A stretch of DNA of 64,000 nucleotides from Chiloscyllium plagiosum (lineage: Eukaryota), in contig NC_057718.1 in NCBI RefSeq assembly GCF_004010195.1, positions 74,845,889 through 74,909,888 on the forward strand. The letters run 5' to 3'. Under the pieces are notes generated by a model that had not been told where the DNA came from, did not search any database, and saw only the letters and a program-made list of their open reading frames with translations. Made by a program: the position numbers and the translations under genes. Positions within the stretch are counted from its first letter, which is position 1, and the number at the start of each line of letters is the position of its first letter. Shown piece by piece: positions 495-62,030 of the stretch.

Positions 495-1403
495 TTAAAG
501 CGTAGCGTCGCTGGGTAGCGTAAGGAGTACTGAATAGTCCATTAAACACTTCTTCGCCTCATCGAATGCCTTCCTCTTTTGGACCAGAGCTGGGGAAATG
601 TCCTGGAATAACATGATCTTGGATCCTTTATAGATCATGGCTTGGGAATCTTTTCCAAGATTTCTAGAGGCTTCTAGGAGTATCTGCCTCTCCCTATAGC
701 TCTGCAGCTGGAACAGGACTGGGCGACGGCACTGGTTCGAGCCGGGCCCGTGTATTGCAACCCGGTCGGCCCATTCCACCCTTACCTGGCCTGATCCAGC
801 CTCCAGATTTAAAAGCTGTGGCAGCCACTGCTGGAGGAATGCTGTAAGCTGGCCTTCCTCTTCCCGTTCGGGAAGGCCCAGCAAACGAATATTTTTTCGA
901 CGACCTCGATTATCGAGGTCATCAATGTGATTCTCTAAGGTCCGGACTCGCTGTTCGAGAGTCCGGACCTGATCCATGGCCGATTGCGCTGTGGTTTCGG
1001 AGGTCGTGGCCTTTAGCTCCTCCCCTCTGACTCGGCGCTCAATTTCTTTAATGTCTCGGTCGTGCTTCTGCAGCGCGGCCGAGAGTGAGTCCCATCGACT
1101 TCGGGATTCTTCAATGAAAGTGTCATCTTCGCATCCAGTTTGGAGATGATTTCCACAAGGCTTGCCACTGTAGGTAAGTCAAGCTTTTTATTCCTGATGA
1201 AGGGCTTTTGCCCGAAACGTCAATTTTGCTGAAGCTCCTCGGATGCTGCCTGAACTGCTGTGCTCTTCCAGCACCATTGATCCAGAATCCTCCACTGTAG
1301 GTAAGTCCCCCGGGGCGGCTGTGGATGCCTCTGCTGCAGCTGGAGAGGGTGGGGGAGGGGTTCCTGCTTGCTGAGAGCTGCGGGCTCCCTTCCCTTTAGT
1401 CAT
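495..1403 (-). pseudogene. L1 ORF1p (RNA-binding/chaperone), disrupted
   Basis: N-terminus MTKGKGARSSQQ... starts at 1403. It is interrupted by the 1181-1291 insertion and a frameshift. The C-terminal part is track ORF 495..977. Confidence 0.8.
1181..1291 (+). mobile_element. Short Penelope-like pseudo-LTR fragment (family A) with hammerhead-like core, inserted in L1 ORF1
   Basis: Flanked by a 16-bp direct repeat CCACTGTAGGTAAGTC (1165-1180 and 1292-1307). Contains CTGATGA-A-GGGC-TTTT-GCCC-GAAA-CGTC (1194-1221). The same sequence terminates PLE copies at about 25300 and 56700. Confidence 0.85.
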
Positions 1404-9022: not shown

Positions 9023-11085
9023 CATAAGAGTCATACAGCACAGAACCAGGCCTTTTGGCCCACCATGTCTATGTCAACCAACAAGTAACAAGCTATACTA
9101 ATACCATTTACCTGGTCAATAGCCTGTTGCGCCTTGGCATTTTAAGTGCACATTCAGATGTTGCTTAAATGTTGAGAATACTTGCCTCCGCTATCTTTGC
9201 ATATTTCTACTGCTGTACGGGTGAAAAATTATTCCTCAGATCTTCTCTAAACTACTTGCTCCTTGATTGTATGCTCTCTAGTCTTAGATATATCTGCATG
9301 GGGAAGTAATTCTCCTGTCCGCCATCTCTACTCCAGGGAAAACAAAGCCAGCCTATCCAGTTTCTCCTTATAGCTGAGATGTTTCATCTCAGGCAATCTC
9401 CTGGTGAATGCTCTGCCCCCTCTCCAGTATAATCACGTTTTTCTGATTGTGATTTGGAGATGCCAGTGTTGGACTGGGGTGTACAAAGTTAAAAATCACA
9501 CAACACCAGGTTATAGTCCAACAGGTTTAATTGGAAGCACACTAGCTTTCGGAGCGACGCTCCTTCATCACCTGATGAAGGAGCGTCGCTCCGAAAGCTA
9601 GTGTGCTTCCAATTAAACCTGTTGGACTATAACCTGGTGTTGTGTGATTTTTAACTTTCTGATTGTAACATGCCTTCTACAGGTAATGCACATAACAAAC
9701 AGCAACACTGCTGATCCCAGGCTTCCAATTACAAAAACAACACTCTATTGCTGTTTTCTATTTTTAAGCCAGTTTTGGTGATCCAGTTTGTCAGCTTGCT
9801 TTGGATCCCATAGGCTCTTATTGCTCGGACCAGCCTTGTATGCGAGATCTTGTCAAAGGCCTTTCTAAAGCCCATGTAAAGCATATCCACTGCACTACCC
9901 TCACCAATTTATTTAGTCAGCTTTTCAAAAAATTCAAGTAACCAGGCTGGATCTCCCTCCAAATCCATGTTGACTATAACCTGATTAATAAAAACCTAAA
10001 TAGTTACAGGTGCTATGAATCAGAAACCAAAGTTGCTGGAAAAGGCCTGCAGGTCTGACAGCATCTGTGAAGAGAAATCAGGGTTAATGTTTTGGCTCTG
10101 GTGCCCCTCCTCAGAGCCTTGATGCATGCCTGTTTTTCCAAATATTGATTAATCATGCCTCAGAATTTTTCCAATAATTTCCCTACCACAGACATCTGCA
10201 ATTACCTGCCTAACACTACTGCCGTTTGTGAACAAAGTAACTATGTTAGTTATTCTTCTGTCGTTTAGCACATCGCTTATGACCAGTGAAATATCTAAAT
10301 ATATTGCCAGGGTCCAGTATCTTCTCCCTTACCTCCAACAGCAGCCTGAGTACACTTCTTCAGGGAATTTATGTACCTATATTCCCACTAAAACATCTCC
10401 TTAAATATCTCCTCCTTATTAATGTTAATGTGTTCTAGAACCTCACCATCCCAGCTCAAATCTACAACTACAGTGTCTTTCTCTTCTGTATACAGTGTTA
10501 TTTAAAATCTCACCAATGTCACTGGCTCCACACACAGTTTGCCCCTTTGGTCTCTACTGGGTCCCACACTTTTGTTGGTAATTCTCTTACTGTTAAAATG
10601 CTTAAAGCTTTGGGGTTGTCTTGATCCCATCTGCAAAATAGATTTTGTTGCCCCTCTTCACCCTCCCAGTTTCCTTCTTAAGCAACCTCCAAAACTCTAA
10701 CTTTTTGAAGGCCTGCCCCTGTTTTGAAAGCATTGCATCTGACACGCACTTCCTCCTTTTTTTTTATAAAGTCTCTATTCCTTTATAGCTGGGTTTACGG
10801 ACTTACTGCCCTTGCCTTTCACTCTTAGAGGAACATGCTGGCCCTAAAAGTATGACTTTTAAAATAACTTCTACTTTCCAAATATTGGTGCTCCCAGACA
10901 ATGTAGGTTACATTCTGTCTAATGATATTGAAGAGGGCCTTCCCCTATTATTGACACTTCTGCACTATCCTTATTCCTTTCCATAATGACTTTGAAACCT
11001 AAGTTATGGTCACTATCCCCCTCACTCGCTGAAACTTCAACTACTTGACTGGTTTCATGCCCTAGGACTAGGTTTAGCAATGCCC
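9023..11085 (-). mobile_element. Old fragmented CR1 LINE (host of the 9451-9658 insertion)
   Basis: CR1 tail at about 9023-9070. RT remnants at about 9780-9960. SDHN endonuclease motif in ORF 10919..11101. Confidence 0.6.
9451..9658. mobile_element. Fold-back Penelope-derived element (family B) with minimal hammerhead core
   Basis: Perfect 86-bp inverted repeat 9485-9570 / 9573-9658 with a 2-nt spacer. Flanked by direct repeat TTTCTGATTGT (9440-9450, 9656-9666). Core CAC-CTGATGA-A-GGAGC-GTC-GCTCC-GAAA-GCTA-GTG at 9569-9603. Confidence 0.85.
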
Positions 11086-12060: not shown

Positions 12061-12228
12061 TGACACCCGTTATGTTCTTTATCTTTTGCATGTTTCAGTT
12101 TTTCTCATAATATTTTGCTTACAGTCAGCTGAACAACAGTTCCAAGTACATTTTTTCTTTGTTTCCTTTGACCCTAGTGGACTATTTCTTCTATCATTAA
12201 TCATTCAGGTGCACTGAATGTGCACTGG

Positions 12229-12481
12229 CGACTGACTGTGTGGAGTTTGCACGTTCTCCCCGTGTCTGCGTGGGTTTCCTCCGGGTGCTCCGGTTTCCTC
12301 CCACAGTCCAAAGATGTGCAGATCAGGTGAATTGGCCATGCTAAATTGCCCGTAGTGTTAGGTAAGGGGTAAATGTAGGAGTATGGGTGGGTTGCGCTTC
12401 GGCGGGTCGGTGTGGACTTGCTGGGCCGAAGGGCCTGTTTCCACACTGTAACGTAATCTAATGTAATCTAATCTAATCTAA
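12229..12481 (+). mobile_element. HE1 SINE, 5'-truncated
   Basis: Near-identical to the other HE1 copies. (CTAAT)n tail. Confidence 0.9.
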
Positions 12482-13424: not shown

Positions 13425-14642
13425 TTGTACTTAAAATACTTACAATGGAAGTGATGAAGGCATATTGGCACACTACCTTGCTCAAGCAAGTCTGTTACAC
13501 TGGCTGGCCACAGCAAACCTAATGCAGCAGGCAAACAAGGCTCAACTGAGAAAGGAGTTTAAATGAAATGGTGTCCGAAATGAAAAGTGGGCTCAACTGA
13601 AAACGTTTACTGGAAGTTGGGCTGAATGGAAAGGAGCAATAAGTATTATAACTTAAAAGACAAGGTTGCCAGGGACATGATCCAGGTAAGAAGAATGTGA
13701 TATGAAGGTTGTTGGGTGTTAAAAAAGTATAAATGAAAGGTGTCATTAAAGTTGATGAAAATCAATAAAGCATTATATGATGTGTGTGCTTCAGATATCT
13801 GACAGGTATTTATCTCAAAGTCATCTTTTGTGGTGGTGCCCTTGTTCCATGCAGCCTTTGATTAATTAGATCTGCACATTCTCTTAATCATGACAACAGA
13901 TCAGTGAGCTGATGTACAAGAGCTGCTTAATGTTGCAGTTCCTTTTATATTTTATGTTTTATGTGTGAACTTCAGCAAATGTGTGACAGGCAGAAACACT
14001 GGGGTGCAAGTAGTGCAATAAGTAATTGCAATGAAGTAACAAGCATTGACTGCATGTGAGGTATCTGGTGCACTACTGGTGAGTCTGACACCCAATCTTG
14101 TGTGTGACAATCCTGTGCAGTGACTAGCTTTTGCCTGGTTTCCCAAATTACCAGAAAACCTCTAAGAATGATGAGCAGAGGTTGCTGCTCTCAAGTTGCA
14201 GAGAGTGAATTGTTTTCCGAGTGTCTTTTAAATATGGTTAGAGTAAAGAAGGTCCCTTGTTGGGGTTCAAGTGCACAATGTCCAGCCCAATTGTTCAAAG
14301 AAACTTTGGATTTTTACCTGCACCTGTATGTCCGATGACTGGAGACAAACAATAATCATATGAGACCACCTGATCCATCCTTGATTAGAAGTACCTCCTG
14401 CTTTTTGGCCATTCTCTAAACTATGTCTTCAAACATGGAAACTCTGTTCTTTCTACAGATGCTGCCATAATCTGCAAAATATTTACAACATTTTCAGCTT
14501 TTATTTCACACAACTGGTCTTAGTGGAGTTATATTGATAAAACATGTGTAGCAACTTCAATGTTCCATTTCTTGCCCTTTATTTTTTACCTTGTCCTCTT
14601 TTCCTGAAGATTTTGACTCTTTGGTATTGTCCTTTAGACAGT

Positions 14643-14962
14643 AGATTAGATTACTTACAGTGTGGAAACAGGCCCTTCGGCCCAACAAGTCCACACCGAC
14701 CCACCGAAGCATAACCAACCCAGACCCATTCTCCTACATTTACCCCTTACCTAACACTACAGGCAATTTAGCATGGTCAATTCACCTAACCTGCACATTT
14801 TATGGATTGTGGGAGGAAACCGGAGCACCCGGAGGAAACCCACGCAGCCACGGGGAGAATGTGCAAACTCCACACAGATAGTCGCCTGAGGTGGGAATTG
14901 AACCCGGGTCTCTGGCGCTGTGAGGCAGCAGTGTTAACCATTGTGCCACTGTGCCGCCCACA
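14643..14962 (-). mobile_element. HE1 SINE, full length
   Basis: tRNA-like head with B box (GGTTCAATTCC on minus), body, tail. Confidence 0.9.
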
Positions 14963-16002
14963 GCAATCATCCTTTGGATGTTTGTATAAATTGCCTTTAC
15001 CATATGTGAACCATCACAGTAGACTATACAACCTTGTGAAATATCAAAGTAAAACACCACATCACCCTGGTTCAACGTCAACACGTGCAATCTTCAAGCT
15101 GGGGTCAATGTGTGGTAATGATGAGTCTCAGGTTAATTTTCCCTGTCCGAGATACTGTAACTGCTGCCTGCTGACGTCACCTAGCTCATTGAAAACTAGG
15201 AAACAAATTGATTTGAGCATCATTTTTGTTCAACTTCTGAATCAGAAGGTCCATTGTTCAAACCCTATTTTAAAATATGATTATAATTTACAATGATAAT
15301 TCTGTGCATTATTAAGGGATCATAACATATACATAGATGTCTTGCTGGTGGAATGCGAACTTGAAATAACCAATTATTTGTTTTGATCTGAATGCTAAAT
15401 ATTGGTGAGTTATTATTAGTTGCTTGCTAAAGACTTTGTAAATACAAAACTTCATTGCAGAATCCATACAGTTAATTTTGATTTTATAAGCAGCAACCGC
15501 TTTTTGCGAGTTTCCTACTTCTCTCCCTCAATCACATTATTGTTAGTCATACTTTCAGTTACTAGATACCCCCCTCCACTTTACCCCCATTCTGGTACTT
15601 CCTCTTTAAAGATTCACCTTAAAACTTATCTCTTTTAGTTTCCTTTTCTACCTTGGGTTTAAGTCTTTGTAGAGTGCTTTGGGATTTATATCTACGTTAA
15701 GGTTGCTGCATTAGCAGAAGCAGTAATACCAGTAGTAAGATTACCTCCAGGCAAGATTTCCATACCTACCCATTTTTGCCTCCTCTATAGATCAATTCCA
15801 GCACGCTGTGAAGTTTGACAAATACTTCGTTTTGATTTTTGTGTTTTGCCATGATAACAAGCTGTTAGTATTCTAAAAGTTAATCAGTTAATTGGGCAAA
15901 ACTGGGTGGGTGCCAATAATATAATCAAAGCAAATTTCCTTGATGAAGTTGATTCACTTGTGAAACCCATGTCACATATGTAAGCCTGTGAGCATATACA
16001 AC

Positions 16003-16760
16003 TAGGAGAAAGTGAGGACTGCAGATGCTGGCGATTAGAGTGGATAAGTGTGGCCCTGGAAAAGCACAGTCAATCAGGCAGCATCTGAGAACCAGGAGAA
16101 TTGGCGTTTCGGTCAAAAGCCCTTCATCAGGAATGTGGGGGTTGGTAGGGTCGGTGGGGGGTGGAGGGGTGCGTGGAAGGGGGCTAAGAGATAAATAGGA
16201 GAATGGGGGTGAAGCTAGGTAGCTGGGAAGGCAATAGGTACATGCAAGAGGGGAGTGAGGGTGATAGGTCAGAGGGGAGGATGGAGTGAATAGGTGGGAA
16301 GGAAAATGGACAGATGGGACAGTATAAGAGGGTGGTGCAAACTTGCAGGCTTGGTTCTGAGATGAGGTGTGGGGAGAGTAATGAGGAATCTGGTGAAATC
16401 AACATTGATGCCATGTGGTTGGAGGGTACCAAGGCCACTTCAACTCCTCCTCCCACTCCGCCAAGGACGTGCAAGTCCTGGGCCTCCAGCCCCACCAAAT
16501 CCAAGCCATCTGAGCCTGGAGGAAGAACGCCTCATCTTCCGCCTTGGGACCCTCCAACTGCACAGCATCAACATTGATTTCACCAGTTTCCTCATCTCTC
16601 CTCCCCTCACTTCATCCCAGATCCAACCCTCCAACTCAGCACCGCCTTCTTGGACTGTCCTACCTGTCCATCTTCCTTCCCACCTATCTGCTCCACCCTC
16701 CTCTCTGACCAATCACTATCACCCTCGACCTACATCTGCTTATTGACCTCTCAGCTACCT
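16003..16760. mobile_element. PLE 3' end in inverted (back-to-back) configuration
   Basis: 16003-16430 is the PLE 3' end/pLTR on minus (hammerhead-like core about 16103-16133). 16431-16760 is a homologous GIY-YIG end (LEEERLIFRLGTLQ..INIDF) on plus. Confidence 0.8.
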
Positions 16761-18210
16761 GGAAGCTCACAAATAAACCTGTTGGATTATAACTTGGTGT
16801 TGTGTGATGTTTGCCTCACTGACCTAGATATGGTCCCTTGAAATTTCAAATTTACAATTTCTAATCTTATGTCTGCCTATCATTAACGTATGCTAGGAAT
16901 CAATTATTGTAAAAGTTTCTTGTTTTATATGTTCATCTTATCAGGAGGTTGGTAAGTCCAACATATTCCTTCTTTGCTTCTTAATTATCTTCTAGCATCA
17001 AATCCTTGAATTCTGCATTCCTCCAACATCTACTTCTTTGCACGTCCTCTCCCTTCATACCACCATTGGTGTTTATACCTTCAGCCTGGAAGACTCTTTG
17101 TAAACTACAATTATCAAGTGATGGTTTCACTTGTTATTTGTATAATCCTGTGACTTGTTAGATGAAAGTGAGTTGTCATATTTGCCTGTCTAAGAACAGT
17201 GACTTTTCAAAAGTGATCAATTTCTGGTAATGGACTACACGATTTGCTAAGGATCAAGTTTCTTCTTCTGTACTCTTCTATTTCTAGGGCATATGCGCTA
17301 TTTGTTTGAATGTGCTAGTCGTTTACATATATGCTATTTGTTTGTTTGAATGTGCTAGTCACTTACATATTTTGGAATGACTGTCAAAACAAATTGATTT
17401 AAAGTGAATAAGGTTAGACTGAAATAATAATTGTGGAGCTAATTTTAATGTGGGCTTGGATGGAACATTGAGGGATTAAATCTGGGAAAAACCTGAGTGC
17501 GTTGAGAGGCCAACTCTATTCTGTCAATTTCTGCATTTTACTGTAAGTGTATGCTTTTGTGGAGCCCCAATGGGGAGAAGCATTCACAGTTTTAATATAA
17601 TAATTGCAAAACTAGACTTTTGCAGTTGATCTTTGGTTTCGTGTGTTTCTTGTGCTTCTGGGAGGTTGCCAGTGAAAGCAAGGTAAGTACATTGTTCCAA
17701 CTGAGAAGGCTAAAGCCACGACAGCAAAATATATCAAAGTGCACTTTATACTCACAGCTACTTTCTTACTTGAAATGAAATCAGAAAATGCTACAAGTAT
17801 TCAGCAAGTCTGGCAGCAACTGTATGTTCAGGTCTATGACCTTTCATCAAAAGCCATATGGTCCTGAAAAAGCTTTGTTTTTTCTCTGCATAGATGCTGC
17901 CACTTGCTGGAAATATTTCAGTCTTTTTGGCTTTATTTCAAATATGCAGCATGGTCAATATTTTGTTTTGTGCTGGCTTATTTGTTTAGAATTTTTGATA
18001 ATACTTGTGTTGAAAGATTTCTTTGCCTACTTTGGAGAGTTTGTGTTCCAATCTGCATTTTGCTGAATATCTGCTCTGCAGCATATCCTGTATGACATAG
18101 GAACTCAGACAGGAGTTGCAATGACCAGTATCATTGGGACAGCAACACCAGCAATGAGTGCCTTTCAGCCATGGCAACACAAGCATCAGAGGTAACAACT
18201 TGTGGCCTGT

Positions 18211-18540
18211 GGGCAGCACGGTGGCATTGGTGGGCGGCACGGTGGCACAGTGGTTAGCACTGCTGCCTCACAGCGCTGGAGACCCGGGTTCAATTCCCGC
18301 CTCAGGCAACTGACTGTGGAGTTTGCACGTTCTCCCTGTGTCTGCGTGGGTTTCCTCCGGGTGCTCCGGTTTCCTCCCACAATCCAAAGATGTGCGGGTC
18401 AGGTGAATTGGCCATGCTAAATTGCCTCTAGTGTTAGGAAAGGGGTAAATGTAGGGGTATGGGTGGGTTGCGCTTCGGTGGGTCAGTGTGGACTTGTTAG
18501 GCCGAAGGGCCTGTTTCCACACTGTAATGTAATCTAATCA
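18211..18540 (+). mobile_element. HE1 SINE, full length with duplicated head
   Basis: GGGCAGCACGGTGGCA-TTGGT-GGGCGGCACGGTGGCACAGTGGTTAGC...GGGTTCAATTCCC... tail. Confidence 0.9.
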
Positions 18541-19554: not shown

Positions 19555-20058
19555 AGCACTGCTATTTCTTGCAAAGGGGATGGATATAAAAGTAAGGAAT
19601 TTTTGTACATGGATTTGGTGAAACTTCACCTTGTGTACTGCATAGAATTTTGGCCTCTTCACTTCAGGAGGACATTTTTGCTATAGAAGCATTTCAAAGA
19701 ATGTTCCCGAGGATAATTCCTGTAATAAAAGCTTTGTACTATGTGGAAAGGTTGCGCAGGCTGGGCCTATATTCATTTAAGTTTAGAAGAATGAGAGGTG
19801 ATTTTATTCAAACATAAGATTCTGAGCAGGCTTGGCAGAGTGGAAGCTGAGAAGTTAAATGCTGCCTCTCAGCGCAGTGGCAGTCTTTGGAATTCTCTTC
19901 CCACAGAGAAGGAGGCTGGATCGTCTCATATATTTAAGACTGGGTTAGACAGATTTTTGTTGATAAGCAAGTTAAAGGTAATGGGAGGCAAGCAGTAAAA
20001 TGGAGTTAAGGTTATATCAGACCAACCATGATCTTATTGAGTTGAGGAGTAGACTCCC
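19555..20058 (+). mobile_element. CR1 3'-end fragment
   Basis: ORF2 C-terminal remnant (LWNSLP...IFKTGLDRFL) and tail. Confidence 0.7.
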
Positions 20059-20899
20059 CACCTTTTCATCCGCTACATTGATGACTGTATCTGCGATACC
20101 TCGTACTCCGATGAGGAGGTTGAACAGTTCATCAATTTCACCAACACATTCCACCCCAACCTTTCAATTCACCTGGACCACCTCAGACACCTCTCTCCCC
20201 ATCCTGGACCTCTCCATCTCCATCAACAGTGATCAACTCAATACTGACATCTTCTACAAACCCACCGACTCCTACAGCTATCTGGACTACACCTCCTCCC
20301 ACCCTGCCTCATGTAAAAATGCTATCTCTTATTCCCAATTCCACCACCTCTGCCACATGTGCTCCCAGGAGGACCAGTTCCACCACAGAACACACCAGAT
20401 GGCCTCCTTCTTTAAAGACCGCAATTTCCCCTCCCACGTGGTTGATGATGCCCTCCAACACATCTCATCCACTTCCCACACCACCGCCCTCAAACCCCAC
20501 CCGTTCAACCGCAACAAGGACAGAACACTCATGGTCTTCACGTTCCACCCCACCAATCTGCAGATACATTGCATCATCCTCCGCCATTTCTGCCACCTAC
20601 AAATGGACCCCACCACCAGAGTATATTTCCCTCCCCATCCCATCTGCATCCCGTAAAGACCATTCCCTCCATGACTCTCTTGTCAGGTCCATGTACCACC
20701 CCACCAACCCACTCTCCCCTCCCGGCACCTTCCCCTGCCACTGCAAGAATTGCAAAACCTGCGCCCACACCTCCCCCCCTCACGTCCATCCAATGCCCCA
20801 AAGGAGCCTTCCACATCCATCATAGATTTACCTACACTTCCACACATTGAACAATATAGTGCAGAACAGGCCCTTCGGCCCTCGATGTTGTGCTGACCC

Positions 20900-24660: not shown

Positions 24661-25981
24661 TACTGCCCTGATCAGAAAGTAAAAAAACGAAGAGAAGCTT
24701 ACCTGATGTGTCCCTTGTGTTTAAGGATAGAGGAGGTGGATGGGTGGGAGGCCCTACAAGGATAGGGTTTCGGGTTACGAAAACACTAATGTCATTTATG
24801 TAACGTCATCCGTTACTCCTGATGTGGTCTCCTTTACATTGGAGAGACAGGATGCCTACTTGCAGGGTGCTTCAGAGAACATCTCCGGGACACACGCACG
24901 AAGCAACCCCACCACCTTGTGGCCAAACACTTTAACTCCCCTTCCCACTCTGCCAAGGACACGCAGGTCCTAGACCTCCTCCATCGCCAAACCCTAACCA
25001 CCTGACGCCTGGAGGAGGAATACCTCATCTTCCATCTTGGGATCCTCTAACCACTTGGGATTAATGTGGACTTCACCAGTTTCCACATTTCCCACCTTTT
25101 CCCAGTTCCAACCTTCTAACTCGGCACCGCCCTCATGACGCTCTTGTCCATGTTCCTTCCCACCTATCCGTTCCATCCTCCGCGCCAATCTATCATCATT
25201 ACCTCCACCTAAATCTACCTATTGCACTCTCAGCTACCTTCCTCCCAGCCCCAAAATACTCCCATTTATCTCTCCACCCCCTTGGCTCACAAGCCTCATT
25301 CCTAAAGAAGGGCTAATGCCCAAAACGTCGATCCTCCTGCTCCTTGGATGCTGCCTGACCCGCTGTGCTTTTCCAGCATCACTCTCGACTTGAGAATGAA
25401 TAGTCTACTCCTGTTCTGTGTTTTAAATTTTCTTATTGTCTTAGGCTGTATTTGTTCTGGAGTGCATTTTGATGCAAACAAGCTTTTTGCATTTTTTTCC
25501 TCTTGTTGACTTTTTGACATTGTTGTTAATATAATAAAGAAAATTTGATGAACAAAGAAAGAAAAGAAGTCACACTCTCTGGTGACTGGAGCCCTGTTTC
25601 CCAGCAAACGTAGTCACGTTGTATTGGTCCTTGATTTTGTGGTTTAATGCTCAATGTTTCCACAGAAACACAGTCAACATTATGTTCCAGTTCATGTACC
25701 AACCTGAAGGCAAACACAATCTATGGACGTTATGATTTCAAAAGCTTGGAGAAAGGATATGACTATATCAAAGAAATAAACTTACCATCCATTACAGCCA
25801 TTAATCCTCTAGAGTGGGAAGAGCTCTGAATGGTCCTTTAACTTTGAAAGCCTGCAATTCCCATGCCATAAAGAGGCACCGTAAAAATCCCAATAAGTGA
25901 ATGCTATTCCCACAGGACAGATTCAGGACTTGGACACACTGTATTTCCTGCCACCCAAGGGAGAATCCAGCTCTTCCAAAA

Positions 25982-28312: not shown

Positions 28313-28635
28313 TGTGGGCGGCACGGTGGCACAGTGGTTAGCACTGTGGTTAACCCAGAGACCCGGGTTCAATTCCCGCCTCAGGCGACTCACTGTGTGG
28401 AGTTTGCACATTCTCCCCGTGTCTGCGTGGGTTTCCTCCGGGTACTCCGGTTTCCTCCCACATTCCAAAACTGTGCAGGTCAGGTGAATCGGCCATGTTA
28501 AATTGCCCGTAGTGTTAGGTGAAGGGGTAAATGTAGGGGAATGGATCTGGGTGGGTTGCGCTTCGGTGGGTCGGTGTGGACTTGTTGGGCCGAAGGGCCT
28601 GTTTCCACACTGTAAGTAATCTAATCTAATCTAAT
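28313..28635 (+). mobile_element. HE1 SINE, full length
   Basis: Head, B box, body, (CTAAT)n tail. Confidence 0.9.
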
Positions 28636-31746: not shown

Positions 31747-32073
31747 GATTAGATTAGATTAGATTACAGTGTGGAAACAGGCCCTTCGGCCCAACAAGTC
31801 CACACCGACCCGCCGAAGCGAAACCCACCCATACCCCTACATTTACCCCTTACCTAACACTACGGGCAATTTAGTATGGCCAATTAACCTAACCTGCACA
31901 TCTTTGGACTGTGGGAGGAAACCGGAGCACCCGGAGGAAACCCACGCAGACACGGGGAGAACGTGCAAACTCCACACAGTCAGTCGCCTGAGTCGGGAAT
32001 TGAACCCGGGTCTCTGGCGCTGCGAGGCAGCAGTGCTAACCACTGTGCCACCGTGCCGCCCACCGTGCCGCCC
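31747..32073 (-). mobile_element. HE1 SINE inserted in the Rex LINE
   Basis: Full length. AGGTAG repeated on both sides (31742-31747, 32079-32084). Duplicated head GGGCGGCACGGT-GGGCGGCACGGTGGC. Confidence 0.9.
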
Positions 32074-33789: not shown

Positions 33790-36700
33790 ATATCCCTCCC
33801 CCTTTATTTCAATACTTGTCTTAACAACATACCCAATAATTATAGCTATTATACAAGCTTTGTAGTTAGCATTTGTAAACTGCCTGGGATATTTAAAAAA
33901 ACATGGAAAAAAAAACAACCCTTCCATAGACAATATTGACATGATCAGTCTCTAAGGGAAATGGTGAAACCTAGAAGACTGCCCTCTCATCTCAGGAGCC
34001 TTTTCGAGTGTAGTGTCCCAGGCTTCAATAGGTTCTTGTTGTTCCGCAGATACACCCTTCTCTGGCTGTTGTTGCCCTGTGATGCACTGTTGTCTCCTCC
34101 CTGGATATGGCCAACACGGGCACGGACTCTCATGACTCAATTGACACTACTGGTACCAACTGGATTGGCTCAGTACTTTGAGGGACATCCCTTCACCACC
34201 CCACTCCTCCAGCCATCCCCATTGGTGAGGTGTAGTGGTCAGCTAGCACACTGGTCTCCTCCAGACCAGTTCATCCCTAGTCTACACTATAGATGTATAA
34301 TTCTAGGCCAGCATGGTGTCTCCTCTTTGGAATACCCTTGAGCATGTGGTTTTTATTACCTCCCTGCTCTTTTCCAGCTAGTAAAACAAACATCGTTCTC
34401 AGATCGTGGTTGAACATTAAGGACACCTGCGAGCAATGTGTGATTGCGGTGTGGCATGCTCCTGTCCATGTTGATGGACTTTGTTGATTCATTATCCCAG
34501 TGACTCTATGAGGCCCGCTTCAATGTTTGTACAAATCTCAGCACCTGGTCCTTTGTCAACAGGTGATAGGGAGTTGCTCTCACAAGTCTGACACTGTGAT
34601 TTCCCAGGTACTTCTCCAACTCCTGAGCCACAAACTTTGGACCATTGTTACTCATGACTTGTTTGGGGTTCCCAAACCTGGCAAAGAATTCATCCAGCCA
34701 GACTATCATTGCTTCTGCTGATACTGATTCCGTAACCACCACCATGGACCACTTGGAGTGAGCATCTATGACTACTAGTAACATCAGTCCCTCTACTAGT
34801 CCCACGGACACAAAGCGAATCTGTTGCCATGGTGATTGAGGCCATTCCCATAGGTGAAGGGGCAGCAATGGTGGCACCTTCCTTACTAATGCACACGATT
34901 CACATGATCCCGATTTCTCCTCAATCTGGGTGTCCACATTCAGTCACCAAAAATAGCTTCTGCTTATTTCTTTCATTTATACCTTGCCTGGATGCCATTG
35001 GTGCACTTGTTCCAGCACCTTTCCTCTTAATGGGGAAAGGATAATAACTCTTATTCCCAACATTAACACCCATTTGATATGGATAACTCCCACCTTTTGG
35101 ACAGGTTAGGGTGTAATTCTGGGCAGGTTCTGTGACAAGTCCTTCCTCTCAGGACCAAGTCCACCACTTGGCTCAAAACCAAATTATTCTGGATAGTGTT
35201 CCGTACCTGACTCATTGACACTGGTACCTTGTCTTGCTGGGAAAAGTCTATACATTTCTGGTTCCAGCCAAGAAATATTTATTTCCGGTAGTGGTAACCT
35301 TGATGGGGCATTTGTATTCCTTCTCTGCCTGTTGGTATCTGATTTCACATGAGTGGTCTGGCATAGCCAGTACCCATCTCTGCGGGCATTGATATTATTA
35401 CCGTACACGGACCAAAAATGAAGGTTAGCAACCTGTGATTTGTCAGCAGCATGAAGTGCCTGCCGTAAAGGAAATGAGTAAACTTCTTAACACGGAACAC
35501 GATGCTTAATCCTTCCTTTTTCACTTTGGAATTTTTTTCTTCCATCTTCGTTAATGGCCTAACTGCAGATGCAAATGCAATGGGCCTTTCCTTTCCATTC
35601 AGCAAGATGTGTGACAGTACAGCACCAACACCATAAGGAACGTTGCTACAAGTTAACTATAGTGGTAACTTCTGGTCCAAATGCGTTAACACCTCTGCCT
35701 TTCTTTGGGTCTTGCTTCACCTCCTCACATTCCTGGGTCCATTTCCACAGTTGCCCTTTTTCAGCAACCAATGCAGGAGTTTTAGCATGGTTGCCAGAGC
35801 AGACATCTCAATTCAGACATATTCTCTGCCTATGAGCTTCCGTAATGGCTTCCATTTTCCTGGGTGCTTTGTGTTGTCCCTTGCCAAGTACTTTATGACC
35901 CAGGTACTTTATGAAGATTTTAATAAAACTTGCAATTTTCCTTCTTCGCTTGTAGGCCATGGTCTTGCAAACTTTTTATGGTTTCTACTAAGATTTTCAA
36001 ATGCTTCACTTCAGAGAATCCAGTTCCCAAAATATCATCCAAATAACTCTAGCCATCTGACAATACACTCAAAAACAGTTCTATGGCCCTCTGGAATAGA
36101 CGCAGAGCTGGTATGATGCCAAAAGGATGTCCCTTGTAGTGGAACAGTCACCTGTGTGTCACTATTGTCGGCAGTGGCTGGAACTCCTTTGCATCCCCAT
36201 TTGCAAACTGGCCTGAGAAAGATCCATTTTTGAGAATTTCTTTCCAACTGAACAGGTTCTCAGTGAGTGGAACTGGGTATTGATCCGCACTCAGGGCTGG
36301 GTTGGCCATGATCTTAAAGTCAGCATAAATCCTCATCTCACAATCTGTCCTTAAGACTGAAATGATTGGCATTTCCAATGCTCTCAAGTTCACTAGCTGT
36401 TCCAATTCCATCTCCATGTTAGACCTGTCTGGTGGATAATGTGGACAGTGCCTTCATGCTCCTTGGACAAGCTTCCTGCTTCATTCAAAGTTTAATTTCT
36501 ACTCCTTTTATTTACCCCAGGGTCATGTGAAAACATCTTTATTCCTTCCAAAATCTTTTGCAAACGCATTTTTGACTCTACCAGCCTATTAATCATGCCC
36601 CAATTTAACTTTAATTTCTGTAACGAGGAACATCTGAATAAGGCAGAGTAGTTGCCTTTCACTCCATACAAAGGCAATTTCGGCAACTGGTCCCTTAGTT

Positions 36701-37600
36701 ATACTTATACCAGTACATAACCCTTCAGTGGCACCACTTGTTCTGTGTATGTCCATAGAGTAATCTTGATAGGCTCCAATGGTAGTGCCTTAAACCCTTC
36801 CCTATATCTTGATTCAGGAACCAGAGACACCCATATCCATTACCCCTCTAATTTGAGAAGAAACAAGAAATGATCAGTTTCACCTTGTACTGATAGGATG
36901 TTTAGCCAAAACTCTGCTGACTCTGAACCTTCTGCTTCTCCCACAGACGTGGCTGGCACATGGTATAGTCCCTGGCTGGTGGCATGGACCTTATGCCTTG
37001 TCTGTTGAATTGTCTCCTTTACATGCCTTTCTTTTCTTTGATTGTACTCAGAAATTTCAGGCAATATAGTCCACTCACTTGCACCTCCAGCACTGGGCTT
37101 CTTGAGTCTAACATGTTGATTTATGTGGCTACTCTCACCACATCAGTGGTAATCTCCAGTTGGTACCACACTCTGCTGAGTTTCCGCTATTTTATGCACA
37201 TGGGCTTCATCCCTCAACCGTATTATTTCACTGGCGGTCAACTCCAGTGAGGTAGCAATTTTGAAAGTTGCCTTGAAATCTAGGCCTCCCCTTGTTGGAT
37301 GACTTTGAGTCAGAGGCCACAAACCAAATGGTTCTGCAAGGCACCTTGGAGGAACCATCTGAATTCACAATATTCTGATAACCTCTTTAAGGTGGCCACA
37401 AATTGGGGAATGTAACTTTTCATTAAAATGGAAATTTTCCACAATCATCAGTGATTTTGGTGCAAAATAACACCCCAGGGCTTCACATTGCTCTTGGTAT
37501 GTCTTCTCCAAGGGTTTTGCTGGTTGCACCAGACTCCTTTAGAACCATGAAGATCTTGTTCCCAAGGTACTCAAGAAAACTGGTACCATTACATATTCAC
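33633..37600 (-). mobile_element. Ty3/Gypsy LTR retrotransposon, decayed (gag-PR-RT-RH-IN-PPT-3'LTR); 5' end replaced by a PLE
   Basis: gag-like PAKPLEKTY..ALGCYFAPK; RT MRIYADFK...DQYPVP; RNase H ERPIAFAS...LYGRHFMLLTNH; integrase PLHLWEWPQSPWQQI...IDAHSKW...FARFGNP..VMSNNGP.F...PYH; PPT AAAGGGGGAGGG at 33794-33805. Confidence 0.9.
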
Positions 37601-37611
37601 TTTGTTTTTAA

Positions 37612-38100
37612 GCAGAGACTATTCCCTCATTAGGTCCACTCCCCCCACCAATCCACCCTCCACTCTCAGCACCTTCCCTTGCCAAAGTAACTGGTGTAAA
37701 ACATGTGCCCATACTTCCCCCCTCACTTCTGTCCAAGGCCCTAAAGGATCCTTCCCATCCAGCAGAGATTTTCCTACACATCCAAACACCTCATCTACTG
37801 TGTCCGTTGCTCTTGATGTGGTCTCCTCTACATTGGGGAGACAGGATGCCAACTCATGGAAAGTTTCAGAGAACATCTCTGGGAGACACACACTGAACAG
37901 CCTCACTACCCTGTGGCCAACCACTTCAATTCTGCCTCCCACTCCACCAAGGACATGCAAGTCCTGAACCGCCTCCACTGCCAAGTCCAAGCCACCCGAC
38001 ATCTGGAGGAAGAACGCCTCATCTTCCAACTTGAGATCCTCCAACCACATGCAAAGTCAATTTTACCAGTTTCCTCACCTCCCCCACTGCCCCCCAGTCT
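37612..38100 (+). mobile_element. PLE GIY-YIG endonuclease fragment
   Basis: CKTCAHT...CGLLYIGETG...FREHL...VANHFNSASH...LEEERLIFQL. Confidence 0.85.
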
Positions 38101-38216
38101 GTTATTCTGAATTTTTTTTTTTAAATTTGTTCCTTTGATCTGTAATCTTGGACTTTTAACATTTTTAAAAAAAAATATTTTCCCTCTAAGAATTAGTACT
38201 GAAGAGTCTATGCCTA

Positions 38217-38434
38217 GGTACCTTTGTACCCAAGATGGCACTGTAAGTGGCAACCTGTACTCATTTGAGCACATGACAATAACCCTAATTCTAATAATTT
38301 CCAGACAGTGCAATCCATATCCTAAGGTACCTTTGTACCCAAGATGGCAATGTAAATGGCAACCTGTACTCATTTGAGCACATGACAATAACCCTAATTC
38401 TAATAATTTTCAGACAGTGCAATCCATATCCTAA
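38217..38434 (+). repeat. 109-bp tandem duplication spanning a Rex/L2-like 3' tail and its flank
   Basis: 38217-38325 and 38326-38434 are nearly identical (GGTACCTTTGTACCCAAGATGGCA...CACATGACAATAACCCTAATTCTAAT...ATATCCTAA). Confidence 0.9.
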
Positions 38435-43813: not shown

Positions 43814-43938
43814 TAACCACCTGATGAAGGAGCAGCTCTCTGAAAACTCGTGCTTCCAAATAAATCTGTTGGACTATAACCTGACGTTGTGTGATTTTTA
43901 ACTTTGTACACCCCAGTTCAAGACCGGTGTTTCCAAAT
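43814..43938 (+). mobile_element. Single-arm family-B PLE-derived insertion
   Basis: Flanked by CAAGGTACT (43805-43813, 43939-43947). CAC-CTGATGA core at 43818-43827. Diverged relative of the 9451 and 61835 elements. Confidence 0.8.
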
Positions 43939-44571
43939 CAAGGTACTGAAAAGCAGAGATGGAAATTCTTATTTCATAACCACATTCCGCAGCCAGCACT
44001 GGAAGGTGATGCCTCACAGCTGCCAGATTTGCAAACTGGAATATAAGAATGCAATAAAATTCTGTGTTATATGCAAGTGTTCTTTTTCGTTGTGCGACAC
44101 TATCATGGTGGCTTCCTGGCAGAATTCTACTCCCAGTGTACCATGAACATTTTGGTTATGTAATGAGCATTTGGTTAAGATCACATACCTCAGTCTTCCG
44201 CCATCATACCTGATTATGATCATCTTGGGAAGCCGCTATACCATACTGTGAGAAGCATAACATGAGGTTTCACTGTGATGGAAGTGAATGCTCAGGAATT
44301 TCTTCAATAAAAGCATGCTAACTTTCTAAAAGTCCTCACAGATTTTCTGCAGATGAGTTTCACATAGAGAATACTGTGGCTAGAGTCTTTGTGGCCTTGT
44401 CAATGTGCTGAAGACAATGTACAAGGAGATTACTGTTTCATCAGTGAGCACAACTATCACCAGTTACTGTTGAACAGCTTTCAGAGAGACAAAAAGCAGG
44501 TGAAAATCCGCTAACCAAATGATAAGTCTGCAGATCTATAAACCTCACTGTCATCTCTTCAACATTCCTTT

Positions 44572-49142: not shown

Positions 49143-52100
49143 GGAGTCACAGAATCATACAATATGGAAACAGACTTTTTGGCCTATCTCATCCATGCCA
49201 ACCATGTTTCCTAAACTGAAGCAGTCTTGCCTACATTTCCCACATTCCTCTAAACTTTTTCTATCCATGTATCTGTCCAAACAACTTTTAAGTGTTGCAA
49301 TTGTACTTGGCTCTTACAGTTCCTCTCGCAGTTTGTTCCATATATGCACTACCCTTTGTAGAAAAAGTTACTCCTAAGGTCCCTTTTAAACCTTTCCCCT
49401 GTCACCATGCTCTCTAATTTGGGACTCCCTACCCTAGGGAAAAGACCTTAGCTATTCATCTGATCTATGTCACTCATGATTTTATAAACCTCTATAAGAT
49501 CACCCCTTAGCCTTATACATATCAGAGAAAAAAAATCCCAATCTATCCAGCCTTTTCTTAGAACTCAAACTCTCCAGTCATGCTAACATCCCTGTAAAGT
49601 TTTTTTTAATCCTTTCCAGTTTAATAACATCCTTCCCGTAGCAGGCCTGTGACCAGTGGTATGCTGCAAGGATCAGTGTCGGATCCACTGTTGTTCATCA
49701 TTTAAATAAACAATTTGTATGAGAATATAGGAGGCATGGTTCGTAAGTTTGTGGATGACACCAAAATTGGTGGTATAGTGGACAGTGAAGACGATTACCT
49801 AAGAGTACAATAGGATCTTAGATCAAGTTAGAGAACATGGTATCCAGGGGGAGCTAACAAATTGGATACAAAATGGACTTGAAGGTAGAAGACAGAGCAT
49901 GGTGGTGGGGGGTTGTTTTTCAGATTGATGGCCTGTAACCAGCAGTGTGCCACAAGGATCAGTGCTGGGTCCACTGCTTTTCATCATTTATATAAATGAC
50001 TTGAATGTAAATATAGGCAGTACAGCATAGTACAGGCTCTTTGGCCTTGATGTTATGTCAACCTTTTATCTAATTTTAAGATTAAACTAACCTACATACT
50101 CCTCATTGTACTATCATCCATGTGCCTATCCAAGAGTCGCTTAAGTGTCCCTAATGTATCTGACTCTACGGCCATTGCTGCAGTGCATTCCATTCTCCAC
50201 CCACCACTCTCTGTGTAAAGAAACAACCTCTGACATCTCCCCTAAATCTTCCTCCAATCACCTTAAAATTATGCCCCCTCGTGATAGCCATTTCCACCCT
50301 GGGAAAATGTCTCTGGCTATCCATGCTATCATTGCCTCTCATCATCTTGTACACCTCGATCAAGTCACCTCTCATCCTTCTTCACTCCAGTGAGAAAAGT
50401 CTGAACTCCCTCAACCTTTCTTCATAAGACATGCCCTCCATTCCAGGCAGTATCCTGGTAAATCTTCTCTGAGCCCTCTCTAAAGCTTCCATATCCTTCT
50501 TATAATGAGACAACCAGAACTGAAGACAATATTTCAAGTGTGGTCTAACCAGGGCTTTATACAACTGCAACATAACCTCGCAGCTCTTAAACTCAATCCC
50601 CCTGCTAATGAAAGCCAACACACCATAAGCTTTCTTAACAACCCTATCAACCTGGGTAGCGACTTTGAGGGATCAATGGATGTGGATCCCAAGATCCCAC
50701 TGTTCCTTCACACTATCTTTGATCCTGTAATCTGCATTCAAATTTAGCCTTTCAAAATGAATCACTTTACACTTTTCCAGGTTGAACTCCACCTGGCACG
50801 TCCATCATCTTGTCAATATTCCATTGCAACCTACAACAGCCCTCCACACTTTCCACAACTCCACCAATTTTGTGTCAACAACAAACTTATTAACCCACCC
50901 TTCCACTTTCTCATCCAAGTCATTTATAAAAATCACAAAGAGCAGAGGTCTCAGAACGGATCCCTGCAGAACACCACTGGTCATCGAGCTCCAGGCTGAA
51001 TACTTTCCATCTACTACCACCCTCTGTCTTCTATAGGCCTTCCAATTCTGTACCCAGACAGTCAAATATCCCTGTATCCCATGCCTCCTTACTTTCTGAA
51101 TGAGATTACCAAAGGGAAGCTTAACAAATACCTTGCTAAAATCCATATTTATAACATTCACTGCTCTACCTTCATCAATGTGTTTTGTCATATCCTCAAA
51201 TAATTCAATAAGGCTGTGAGGATGACCTGCTCCTCAGAAAGCCACGCTGACTGTTTCTAATCTGATCAAGGTCCCCTTGTACTATAAGATAATCTTTTTT
51301 GCTGTCTGTAAACTTACTAACCATACCAAGAATGGAAAACTTTTCCAAATAATCATAAATCCTGTCTCTCAGAATCTTCTCCAACACTTTGCCCACCACC
51401 AATGAAAGAATGACTGGTCTATAATTCCCAGGGCTATCCCTGTTTCCTCCAATCATCTGGTACTACTCCAGTGGACAGTGAAGATGCAAAGATCATCGCT
51501 AAAAGTGCAGCAATCTCTTTCCTCACTTCTCATAATAACCGTGGATATATCCCGTCTGGCCCAAGGGACTTATCTATCCATGTTTATCAAAATTTTCAGC
51601 ACATCTTCCAGCTTAACATCAACCTGTTTGAGCATATCAATCTGTTTCACACTGTCCTCACAAACAACAAGGTCCCTCTCAGTTGTGAATATTGAAGGAA
51701 AGTATTCATTAATGACCTCCCTTACCTCCTCTGACTCCAGGCACAAGTTCCTTCCACTGTCCCTGATCAGCCCTACCTACATTCTGGCCATCCTTTTGTT
51801 CCTCACATAAGTGTAGAATGTCTTGGGGTTTTCCTTAAACCAACCCACCAAGGCTTTTACATGCCCCCTTCTCGCTCTCCTAAGTCCATTCTTGGTATGG
51901 TTAGTAAGTTTGCAGATGACACCAAAATAGGTGGTTTTACAGACAGTGAAAAAGATTATCTTATAGTACAAGGGGACCTTGATCAGATGAGTCAATGACC
52001 TGAACAGTGGCAGATGGAGTTTAATTTATATAAACATGAAGTGTTGAATTTTGGTAAGGCAAACCAGAGCAGGATGTATAGAGTTAATGGTTGGACCCGG

Positions 52101-54025: not shown

Positions 54026-54420
54026 CCATATAATAAAGATAAAATAGTCATGGTGGGTAGGGTAATGGAGAAATTGATACGGACCAGACTGGGCCTTCGC
54101 ATAAATCCCACATTAACAAGGTTCGGGGGAGTGGGTGGGGTGGGTGGGGTGCAGAAAAGATTTACAAGGATGTTGCCATGGTTAGAGGGGTAGAGTGGAT
54201 CTTTGCTAATAATAAAATTTAGGGAAAAGTGTGAATACATAAACATTGGATTCATTAGTGCAGTAGCAGAGTCCCTTTCAGAATGGAGTGTGTAAAATCA
54301 TTCATCGGTAGATGAGATGGTTTAGAAAATTTTAATGGATGTGCTCCGAAGTGGACAGTCTACCTATTAATATTATTATCTTCCAGATAAGAGCTTAGCA
54401 TGAAATAATTAGGGGATACA

Positions 54421-54735
54421 CGGTGGGCGGCACGGTGGCACAGTGGTTAGCACTGCTGCCTCACAGCGCCAGAAACCCGGGTTCAATTCCCGACTCAGGC
54501 GACTGACTGTGTGGAGTTTGCACATTCTCCCCGTGTCTGCGTGGGTTTCCTCCGGGTACTCCGGTTTCCTCCCACAGTCCAAAGATGTGCAGGTTAGGTG
54601 AATTGGCCATGCTAAATTGCCCGTAGTGTTAGGAAAAGGCGTAAATGTAGGGGAATGGGTGGGTTGCGCTTTGGTGGGTCGGTGTAGACTTGTTGGGCCA
54701 AAGGGCCTGTTTCCACACTGTAAGTAATCTAATCA
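54421..54735 (+). mobile_element. HE1 SINE, full length
   Basis: Head, B box, body, tail. Confidence 0.9.
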
Positions 54736-55229
54736 TATAGATCATATCAATTTGTTTTTGGTAGAGATCCTTTGGTAAAAGCTTACTACAGTAAGCTTTC
54801 CTTTGAGTACTTGAATGTCTTACATACAGGGAGAAGGTCGTTCATTAAGGTTGATATTTCAGAGGAATTTCAGCAAGTCTCATGACATTAAATTTGGCCA
54901 TCAGAAATAAATTTTAATTCAGGGGACCTGGCGTATTTCAAAAGAGAAATACAGAAAATGTGGAAAGGTCTGGATAAGGCAGTGATGGGAAAACAATAAT
55001 TCAATAACATGGTAACAAATAATTAGAATGCATCCCTCTAATTGGCATTGATCACACCCTTATAGAATCTGAACAAATAATAGAAAATAATGCGACACCA
55101 TGCATTTCATATACACATATGTTGGAACGTTATGTGGTTCAGATTATGGTGGATGAAGAGCTGACTGAATATGAACAAAGTGACACAGAGTTGTAGGACA
55201 AGGTTATTTGCCATAGTTCACAGCTTATA

Positions 55230-55533
55230 TTAGATTAGATCACTTACAGTGTGGAAACAGGCCCTTCGGCCCAACAAGTCCACACTGACCCACAACCCAC
55301 CCAGACCCATTCCCCTACATTTATCCCTTCACCTAACACTACGGGCAATTTAGCATGGTCAATTCACCTAACCTGCACATTTTTGGACTGTGGGAGGAAA
55401 CTGGAGCACCCAGAGAAAACCCACGCAGACACGGGGAGAATGTGCAAACTCCACACAGTCAGTTGTCTGAGGCGGGAATTGAACCCAGGTCTCTGGCGCT
55501 GTGAGGCAGTAATGCTAACCACTGTGCCACCCA
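55230..55533 (-). mobile_element. HE1 SINE
   Basis: Reverse HE1. Confidence 0.9.
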
Positions 55534-61692: not shown

Positions 61693-61834
61693 CATGTTAT
61701 GGACAGTTTCATGCTGTAAATTTTAGACTTTAATCTCAGCAAACTAAAGAAACAAGTAGCTGACAAACAAATCACTGCAAAAATATTTGAGAAAATTAAT
61801 TGGTTTGTTTCATGTCACTTAATAGTTCATGAAT

Positions 61835-62030
61835 TTAAAAATCACACAACACCAGGTTATCGTCCAACAGGTTTAATTGGAAGCACACTAGCTTTCGGAG
61901 CGACAATCACCTGATGAAGGAGCGTCGCTCCGAAAGCTAGTGTTTTTCAATTAAACCTGTTGGACTATAACCTGGTGTTGTGTGATTTTTAACTTTGTAC
62001 ACCCCAGTCCAACACTGGCATCTCCGAATC
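61835..62030. mobile_element. Fold-back family-B PLE-derived element with hammerhead core
   Basis: Inverted arm about 61835-61904 pairs with about 61922-61992. Core CAC-CTGATGA...GAAA-GCTA-GTG at 61908-61942. 13-bp flanking repeat ATAGTTCATGAAT (61822-61834, 62031-62043). Confidence 0.85.

What the first reader, a model, noticed from the sequence alone, without database searches (positions are those of the whole stretch)
9451..9658. TSD-flanked perfect fold-back mini-element built around a minimal hammerhead ribozyme
Seen: a roughly 200-bp non-coding insertion with perfect 86-bp arms and a 2-nt spacer, flanked by an 11-bp direct repeat. At its apex on plus is CAC|CUGAUGA|A|GGAGC-GUC-GCUCC|GAAA|GCUA|GUG: a 3-bp stem I (CAC/GUG), a 5-bp stem II, a palindromic AGCU in place of helix III, and a CUA cleavage triplet (predicted cut after 9600). 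Known: Penelope-like elements carry such minimal hammerheads in their pseudo-LTRs, lack helix III and are thought to act as dimers; PLE insertions often have an inverted pLTR copy. Inference: this is a non-autonomous, MITE/retrozyme-like unit of pLTR sequence only. The hairpin would sequester the ribozyme and could yield dsRNA.
Basis: partly seen in the sequence, partly recalled or inferred. Interest (0 to 1): 0.7.

Follow-up and report, generated by a model that had tools for sequence, protein, structure and literature searches.

The report
Stump-sized fold-back Penelope retroelement insertion
This 205-base hairpin is a stump of a common Penelope-type jumping gene in a shark-like genome, laid down in the mirror-copy-plus-tail pattern already described for that class, with its small ribozyme motif trapped in the hairpin, so it is real but mostly ordinary.

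Summary
Observation confirmed, interpretation mostly not. The insert is 9451-9655 with perfect 86-nt arms, an 11-bp TSD and a minimal hammerhead motif (predicted cut after 9600). In public runs the family is huge and its copies end at two sites about 35 nt apart, 9450 and 9485-9488, the PLE signature. Of two sister copies in the window, one folds back at a different apex with the opposite arm longer, and one does not fold back. So the hairpin is built at each insertion and is not a MITE or retrozyme unit. In the hairpin the ribozyme cannot fold; the other strand lacks C3. In one RNA run, 838 of 1,878 laid reads are polyadenylated 12-15 nt after an AUUAAA/AAUAAA in the repeat, upstream of both genomic ends. 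This fits internal initiation of reverse transcription. Best model: two cDNAs primed on opposite strands and joined by microhomology. No RT/GIY-YIG parent was linked to this family. The scan noted the same kind of element four times on other DNA of this genome.

The parts
9440..9450 (+). Left target-site duplication (11 nt; its last T also matches the family's own next base)
   Evidence: Exact repeat of 9656-9666; family continuation from loose ends before 9450
9451..9484 (-). 34-nt PLE 'tail', present on this arm only
   Evidence: Outside the arms; starts at the same base in 3 of 3 tailed copies in the window; family ends cluster at 9450 and 9485-9488; 30-40 bp tail described in PMC8557442 and PMC11167929
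9485..9570 (-). Left (tailed) arm: terminal repeat, truncated inside the hammerhead core; reads G instead of C3 on its own strand
9567..9570 (.). 4-nt microhomology (ATCA) at the head-to-head junction
   Evidence: Fits both the end of the left arm and the family's natural sequence upstream of the core (copy at 61905; loose-end consensus behind 9570); P(>=4 nt by chance) 0.016
9569..9603 (+). Complete minimal type I hammerhead motif; predicted cut between 9600 and 9601; sequestered in the hairpin
   Evidence: Descriptor scan; folding; activity not tested
9573..9658 (+). Right (tail-less) arm; last 3 nt shared with the right TSD
9612..9617 (+). Polyadenylation hexamer ATTAAA (AATAAA in other copies); mirror copy at 9526-9531 on the - strand
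   Evidence: Sequence; variant 9530 A>T in all four runs
9629..9632 (+). Position equivalent to the family's poly(A) addition site, followed by a GU/U-rich stretch
   Evidence: Poly-T loose ends before 9511, 9512 and 9514 on the mirror arm in 454+59+325 of 1,878 laid reads of X21; reads are family-wide, not assigned to this locus
9656..9666 (+). Right target-site duplication
61832..62030 (.). Sister fold-back copy: 13-nt TSD, tailed arm is the longer one and holds the whole hammerhead (core at 61911), other arm starts in loop II, 2-nt microhomology
43814..43939 (+). Older sister copy (85% identical): one arm plus tail, 8-nt TSD, no fold-back
16770..16812 (+). 43-nt fragment of the same repeat at the right end of a fold-back unit of a second PLE family

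Best explanation
The unit is a dead-on-arrival, extremely 5'-truncated insertion of a high-copy endonuclease-positive Penelope-like element (PLE) family. Proposed route: (1) the PLE protein cuts both target strands 8-11 nt apart, giving the TSD (TSD shown; enzyme inferred); (2) reverse transcription starts inside the RNA at one of two sites about 35 nt apart, giving one tail-less and one tailed end (two ends shown; cause inferred from PMC11167929); (3) both nicks are extended, and each cDNA stops near the upstream edge of the hammerhead, probably the 5' end of an RNA starting in the terminal repeat (inferred); (4) the two cDNA ends anneal over 4 nt and are filled in, leaving a head-to-head hairpin (microhomology shown; twin priming inferred). 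The ribozyme motif is a passenger: it sits at the apex because the cDNAs end there, and a transcript through the locus would fold into the hairpin instead.
For: Tail on one arm, inverted copy and 8-13 nt TSDs match the described PLE insertion unit (PMC3846280 passages; PMC8557442 passages). Loose ends in three contig sets cluster at 9450 (457, 793, 145) and at 9485-9488 (714 over three places in X5, 1,007 over three in X11, 57 at one listed place in X17) with heterogeneous flanks (agreement 0.35-0.39). 58,538, 76,179 and 9,018 contigs were laid from X5, X11 and X17. Apex differs between the 2 fold-back copies in the window and 1 further copy has none. The longer arm is tail-less in the finding and tailed in the sister copy; a single snap-back rule does not give both, two cDNAs joined by microhomology (4 and 2 nt) do. 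3 of 3 complete heads start 1-8 nt upstream of C3 and keep the cut site intact. Poly(A) is added 23-29 nt and 60-64 nt upstream of the two genomic ends and the copies carry no A-tail, so the mature 3' end cannot be the template. A second hammerhead-ended family in the window lies directly behind RT and GIY-YIG-like remnants.
Against: No RT/GIY-YIG ORF was linked to this family's repeat; four searches for a link failed. The coding remnants belong to the other family, and their GIY-YIG match is weak (E 0.19, below cut-off). The polarity argument rests on 2 junctions; the 2-nt microhomology has chance probability 0.16. Self-priming of an antisense strand followed by end trimming (PMC3846280 Discussion) also fits. 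Contigs and RNA reads show copies that run at least 20-27 nt upstream of the core, so the head boundary is not universal. No empty site and no independent read across this apex were shown.
Confidence: 0.8

Rival explanations
1. The family is a dedicated non-autonomous PLE derivative: short terminal-repeat-only master RNAs are mobilised in trans by a PLE protein, with the inversion still made at insertion.
For: All 4 family pieces in the window are under 210 nt and 3 of 3 complete heads start within 8 nt of the core. No parent ORF found. Non-autonomous PLE derivatives exist (PMC8557442 passage on Chlamys/MRC1; bioRxiv 10.64898/2026.07.22.740005).
Against: A shared upstream continuation is seen behind 9570 in all four runs (139, 238, 25 contigs; 810 reads), and the loose-end consensus before 9450 implies an ATG right after the tail in three runs, both as expected of a longer element. 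Internal initiation on a 5' repeat gives the same stumps without a separate master (inference).
Confidence: 0.12
2. One reading: the whole hairpin is a MITE- or retrozyme-like unit that is copied as a unit and uses its hammerhead.
For: Perfect arms, TSD, intact motif at the apex. A second hairpin of the same family and similar size is in the window.
Against: Apex and polarity differ between the two hairpins; termini are offset by 34 nt; no tandem direct copies; stem II probability 0.00 in the unit and the hairpin already forms in prefixes ending at 9585, before the cut site is made; the - strand has G3, a change that abolished cleavage of the Anolis PLE ribozyme (PMC11167929). Depth over 9570-9578 is no more than one covered base would give in all four runs, so this apex is rare in the family.
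Confidence: 0.04
3. The hairpin is an assembly or library fold-back artefact.
For: Perfect arms; the apex was not seen among the 15 of 29 joints listed.
Against: TSD on both sides, asymmetric tail, a diverged sister hairpin with its own TSD, and strand-change joints of the same kind at other positions in run X11 (for example 9498/9569 and 9523/9572).
Confidence: 0.03

Closest known systems
Insertion units of endonuclease-positive Penelope-like elements: pLTR, adjacent inverted 5'-truncated copy, optional 30-40 bp tail, TSD (PMC3846280; PMC8557442)
   Same: Head-to-head inverted copy, 34-nt tail on one arm only, 8-13 nt TSDs, palindrome or microhomology at the junction, heavy 5' truncation.
   Different: Truncation is so extreme that only the two repeat ends remain, giving a near-perfect 205-nt hairpin; the parent ORF was not found here.
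Minimal type I hammerheads of metazoan PLEs (PMC4209133)
   Same: CUGAUGA and GAAA boxes, extra nucleotide between 9 and 10.1, G10.1-C11.1 pair, palindromic 15.2-16.2, no helix III, short stem I.
   Different: Stem I is 3 bp and stem II 5 bp (the Schistosoma examples have 4-5 and 7-8); in this copy it is buried in the hairpin; activity untested.
Poseidon element of Anolis carolinensis, PAc (PMC11167929)
   Same: Two ends about 35 nt apart matching two internal RT start sites; uncleaved RNA as template; both target strands cut and extended in vitro would give this shape.
   Different: In PAc the ORF starts in the hammerhead; here the ATG in the core is closed after 8 codons. Clade of this family not determined. 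That paper's main text does not treat inversions, TSDs or polyadenylation.
Animal non-LTR retrozymes (bioRxiv 10.64898/2026.07.22.740005)
   Same: Non-coding, derived from PLE terminal repeats, carry a type I hammerhead.
   Different: Retrozymes are head-to-tail tandems with at least two motifs on one strand; this is head-to-head with one complete motif.
MITEs (definition recalled)
   Same: Short, non-coding, hairpin-forming, TSD-flanked.
   Different: No terminal inverted repeats, variable TSD length (8, 11, 13), apex not fixed, retroelement-type ends.

Membership tests
EN+ Penelope-like element insertion | 30-40 bp tail on one end only | tested here: met
   34 nt at 9451-9484; family ends at 9450 and 9485-9488
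EN+ Penelope-like element insertion | Adjacent inverted, 5'-truncated copy, head-to-head | tested here: met
   Finding and copy at 61832-62030
EN+ Penelope-like element insertion | Short TSD of variable length | tested here: met
   11, 13 and 8 nt in 3 of 3 complete copies
EN+ Penelope-like element insertion | Minimal hammerhead motif in the terminal repeat | tested here: met
   Descriptor match, 0 strict hits in 100 random sequences; not detected by Rfam
EN+ Penelope-like element insertion | Repeat flanks an ORF with PLE RT and GIY-YIG domains in a full-length copy | tested here: inconclusive
   No parent found; no whole genome held; only the sister family is seen behind such remnants
Hammerhead ribozyme (active) | Self-cleavage as monomer, dimer or with protein help | not testable with these tools
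   810 RNA reads of X21 run on upstream of the core and so span the cut site uncleaved; a 3'-end library cannot show cleaved products
Non-LTR retrozyme | At least two head-to-tail units, each with a complete hammerhead | tested here: not met
   One complete motif, inverted arrangement; no tandem array at the locus
MITE | Terminal inverted repeats at both ends | tested here: not met
   34-nt offset between the ends
MITE | Copies uniform in internal structure and TSD length | tested here: not met
   Two apexes and one solo arm among 3 complete copies; TSDs 11, 13, 8 nt

The most novel reading that the evidence does not exclude
These stumps are an in vivo record of how PLEs make their unexplained inverted structures. 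A PLE protein (predicted dimer in PMC11167929) primes on both target strands, one at each of the two internal start sites, on RNA that begins just upstream of the hammerhead; the two run-off cDNAs join by microhomology. Because the family's poly(A) site lies upstream of both genomic ends, the template is the promoter-proximal repeat (or a read-through RNA), not the mature 3' end. A family of this size would give thousands of junctions to test twin priming against antisense self-priming.
Probability: 0.4. Interest if true: 0.5.

Novelty: new member of a known kind. Interest (0 to 1): 0.22.

Why it matters
The single locus matters little: it is one of many stumps of a PLE-type family. Two side results have some use. 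First, how PLEs form inverted copies is still called undefined (PMC8557442 passages), and the junction polarity of such stumps can separate twin priming from self-priming by computation alone. Second, the repeat carries a working polyadenylation site in one RNA run; a family with this many copies could end many host transcripts, and its position upstream of the genomic ends is in vivo support for internal initiation. I found no paper on either point in the open-access library, which lacks most subscription journals and Repbase/Dfam.

Tried and rejected
No whole genome is held, so no copy census. Rfam: no hammerhead model matched; the miRNA hits are generic hairpin matches below gathering score. 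Two family motifs in viral, metagenome and prokaryote collections: 0 matches in 6 of 6 scans. Upstream-continuation motif in the window: 0 matches at up to 3 mismatches. Peptide proxy for the repeat: 0 of 1 candidates passed; the one hit among representatives, P0005, is a weak match (10 of 24 identical) that includes flank-derived residues and repeats three times, judged chance. Pfam: 0 families for 6 of 6 PLE-like frames at E<=0.01 and 1 weak GIY-YIG hit among 4 pieces at E<=5. Covariation on 4 copies: 0 compensatory pairs, uninformative. No RNA holder listed on record for 9200-9900. Empty site: an orthologous left flank exists in organism B (14 differences in 243 nt) but the listing does not show what follows it; 655 loose ends and 14 joints were not displayed. 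Only one arm and the left flank were laid, so a skip across the whole insert could not appear. RNA editing: the A>G and T>C changes in X21 also stand in the DNA contigs, so they are not evidence. No pile-up of ends at the cut site was reported, but the library type cannot show it. Simple snap-back of a first-strand cDNA was considered: from the tailed strand it gives GG, not CC, at the apex; from the tail-less strand it cannot supply the tail.

Full report
Observation. The hairpin is real: arms 9485-9570 and 9573-9658 are 86 nt and fully complementary with CC between them, and an 11-nt direct repeat stands at 9440-9450 and 9656-9666. It folds at -170.8 kcal/mol, z = -28, 0 of 200 shuffles as stable. 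A descriptor (core, optional extra base, stem II, GAAA, paired NN, UH, stem I of 3 or more pairs) gave 2 strict matches in the window, at 9572 and 61911, and 0 in 100 random sequences. Rfam does not detect it. Three details were missed: 34 nt (9451-9484) lie outside the arms; the right arm shares 3 nt with the right TSD; and the minus strand has G in place of C3.

Setting. The window is repeat-rich eukaryotic DNA (self-comparison). No whole genome is held. A coding remnant at 20150-20653 matched 4 of 83 candidate proteins, all named from the shark Chiloscyllium punctatum, 68-78% identical; all four carry PF26215 and two carry RVT_1. So the host is shark-like. These remnants, with RT and GIY-YIG-like motifs read by eye and a weak Pfam GIY-YIG hit (E 0.19), belong to a second family whose own hammerhead-like end lies behind the ORF end (56748, 16130, about 25300). 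Reading them as PLE rests on these motifs and on my recall of PLE signatures.

Sister copies. A search of the window with one arm found three more pieces. Copy 2 (61832-62030, 97% identical) is also a fold-back with a 13-nt TSD, but its tailed arm is the longer one and holds the whole ribozyme motif, while the other arm starts in loop II. Copy 3 (43814-43939, 85%) is a single tailed arm with an 8-nt TSD. Copy 4 (16770-16812) is a fragment. All 3 tails start at the same base, and all 3 complete heads start 1-8 nt upstream of C3. An earlier scan note (e1-7858714) had raised the head clustering and the idea that the template RNA begins there; I reuse that reading.

Public runs. Of 24 runs listed, 20 hold part of 9200-9900, in four coded organisms. 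I laid 4 of them on 9150-9578, one arm plus left flank. 58,538, 76,179 and 9,018 contigs were laid from X5, X11 and X17, so the family is very large and shared by at least two organisms; these are not copy numbers. Loose ends with unrelated flanks cluster at 9450 (457, 793, 145) and at 9485-9488. That is the tailed and tail-less pair of ends. Behind 9570 the listed consensus in all four runs is a common upstream continuation, not this apex, and depth over 9570-9578 is no more than one covered base would give. Strand-change joints in X11 fall at several positions. 655 loose ends and 14 joints were not displayed. The apex of this locus and an empty site were not shown.

RNA. In X21 (single-cell poly(A), about 2% of the run read) 1,878 reads were laid. 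Poly-T loose ends stand before 9511, 9512 and 9514 in 454, 59 and 325 reads. In sense these sites are 12-15 nt after ATTAAA (AATAAA in other copies) and are followed by a GU/U-rich, not A-rich, stretch, so internal priming is unlikely; the signal layout is recalled textbook knowledge. The genomic copies end 23-29 and 60-64 nt downstream of this site and have no A-tail, so the mature 3' end cannot have been their template. 810 reads run on upstream of the core, so they span the cut site uncleaved. These reads are family-wide, come from one sample, and may come from few loci or from host transcripts; the locus's own flank has depth 0-2. A further 198 reads have T-rich loose ends at 9450 with low agreement (0.45), which I cannot explain.

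Ribozyme fate. Alone, the 35-nt motif forms stem II with probability 0.99 and stem I with 0.86-0.89; with the rest of the right arm stem I falls to 0.14; in the whole unit both are 0.00, and the long hairpin is already formed in prefixes ending at 9585, before the cut site is transcribed. Co-folding two motifs pairs the stem II regions between molecules rather than giving the active dimer. Among variants above 5%, none is listed at GAAAGCU (9544-9550 on the laid arm) while loop II varies, partly by CpG decay. Four copies give no covariation.

Mechanism. At the apex, ATCA (9567-9570) fits both arms, a 4-nt microhomology (chance 0.016); copy 2 has 2 nt (chance 0.16). Snap-back of the tailed first strand would leave GG at this apex, and snap-back of the tail-less strand cannot supply the tail. 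Two cDNAs primed on opposite strands, one at each start site, explain both copies. This resembles L1 twin priming (recalled, not read). It fits PMC11167929, where the Anolis PLE protein cuts and extends both strands, starts at two internal sites that define the tail, uses uncleaved RNA, and loses ribozyme cleavage on C3G. The rival in PMC3846280, self-priming on an antisense template, also fits if 34 nt are trimmed afterwards. Two junctions cannot decide. With 0 differences in 94 paired sites (83 arm, 11 TSD), divergence is below about 3%, against 14 of 243 between organisms A and B in the flank, so the insertion is probably young, unless the arms were homogenised.

Comparison. It works like, and by four of five tested features is, an EN+ PLE insertion unit; the fifth, a parent ORF, stayed open. 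It fails the retrozyme test (no head-to-tail tandem) and the MITE tests (no terminal inverted repeats, non-uniform copies).

Papers seen. PMC4209133: parts 1-2 of 4. PMC11167929: parts 1-2 of 4 and 2 passages. bioRxiv 10.64898/2026.07.22.740005: parts 1-3 of 5. PMC8557442: 9 passages. PMC3846280: 11 passages and the Discussion. No supplements were read; those of PMC4209133 and the preprint (which sampled one chondrichthyan) may list this family. Searches listed no paper on a shark PLE hammerhead family, PLE polyadenylation or PLE twin priming, judged from titles and abstract starts.

Earlier scan notes. Four notes on other DNA of this genome reach the same verdict; none was found by sequence, near this place or on polyadenylation. 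They are unchecked and not counted as support.

Verdict. Real feature, known kind, new family member at most. Interest 0.22; the upside is the use of such stumps to test the PLE insertion mechanism.

Noticed in passing
window 15993-16812: Fold-back unit of the second PLE family (arms about 78-82% complementary) whose right arm leaves that family's 3' region near 16760 and ends in a 43-nt piece of the finding's family; chimera at insertion or later deletion, no TSD seen.
   Followed up: partly
window 56627-58900 (minus), 19970-20845, 24790-25385, 37550-38085: Broken copies of a second PLE-like family with RT and GIY-YIG-like remnants; its end carries a related hammerhead-like motif (1194, 16130, 33352, 56748). 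A gap of N covers 57079-57900.
   Followed up: partly
run X21 on window 9511-9514: Family RNA is polyadenylated 12-15 nt after ATTAAA/AATAAA in 838 of 1,878 laid reads; the repeat may donate poly(A) sites to host transcripts.
   Followed up: partly
runs X5, X11, X17 before window 9450: The loose-end consensus implies that the family continues in sense with an ATG right after the tail, a candidate ORF start; overall agreement is low (0.37-0.39).
   Followed up: no
runs X5 and X11, joint 9450/9485: 2 and 9 contigs join the tailed end to the tail-less end on opposite strands (tail-to-tail), perhaps insertion into the family's own ends.
   Followed up: no
window 12227-12470, 14642-14961, 18229-18539, 28314-28633, 31752-32067, 54419-54737, 55226-55531: Seven copies (88-96% alike) of a 240-320 nt SINE-like repeat; the pair at 54434-55531 forms an inverted repeat.
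   Followed up: no
window 51257-51991: Inverted arms (56 and 32 nt, 95-97% complementary) about 550-620 nt apart within LINE-like sequence, possibly an inverted LINE insertion.
   Followed up: no
window 34506-34943 (minus); 495-1178 (minus); 38216-38434: Integrase core remnant (PF00665, E 1e-9); an L1 ORF1-like frame by eye; a 109-nt tandem duplication at 97%.
   Followed up: no
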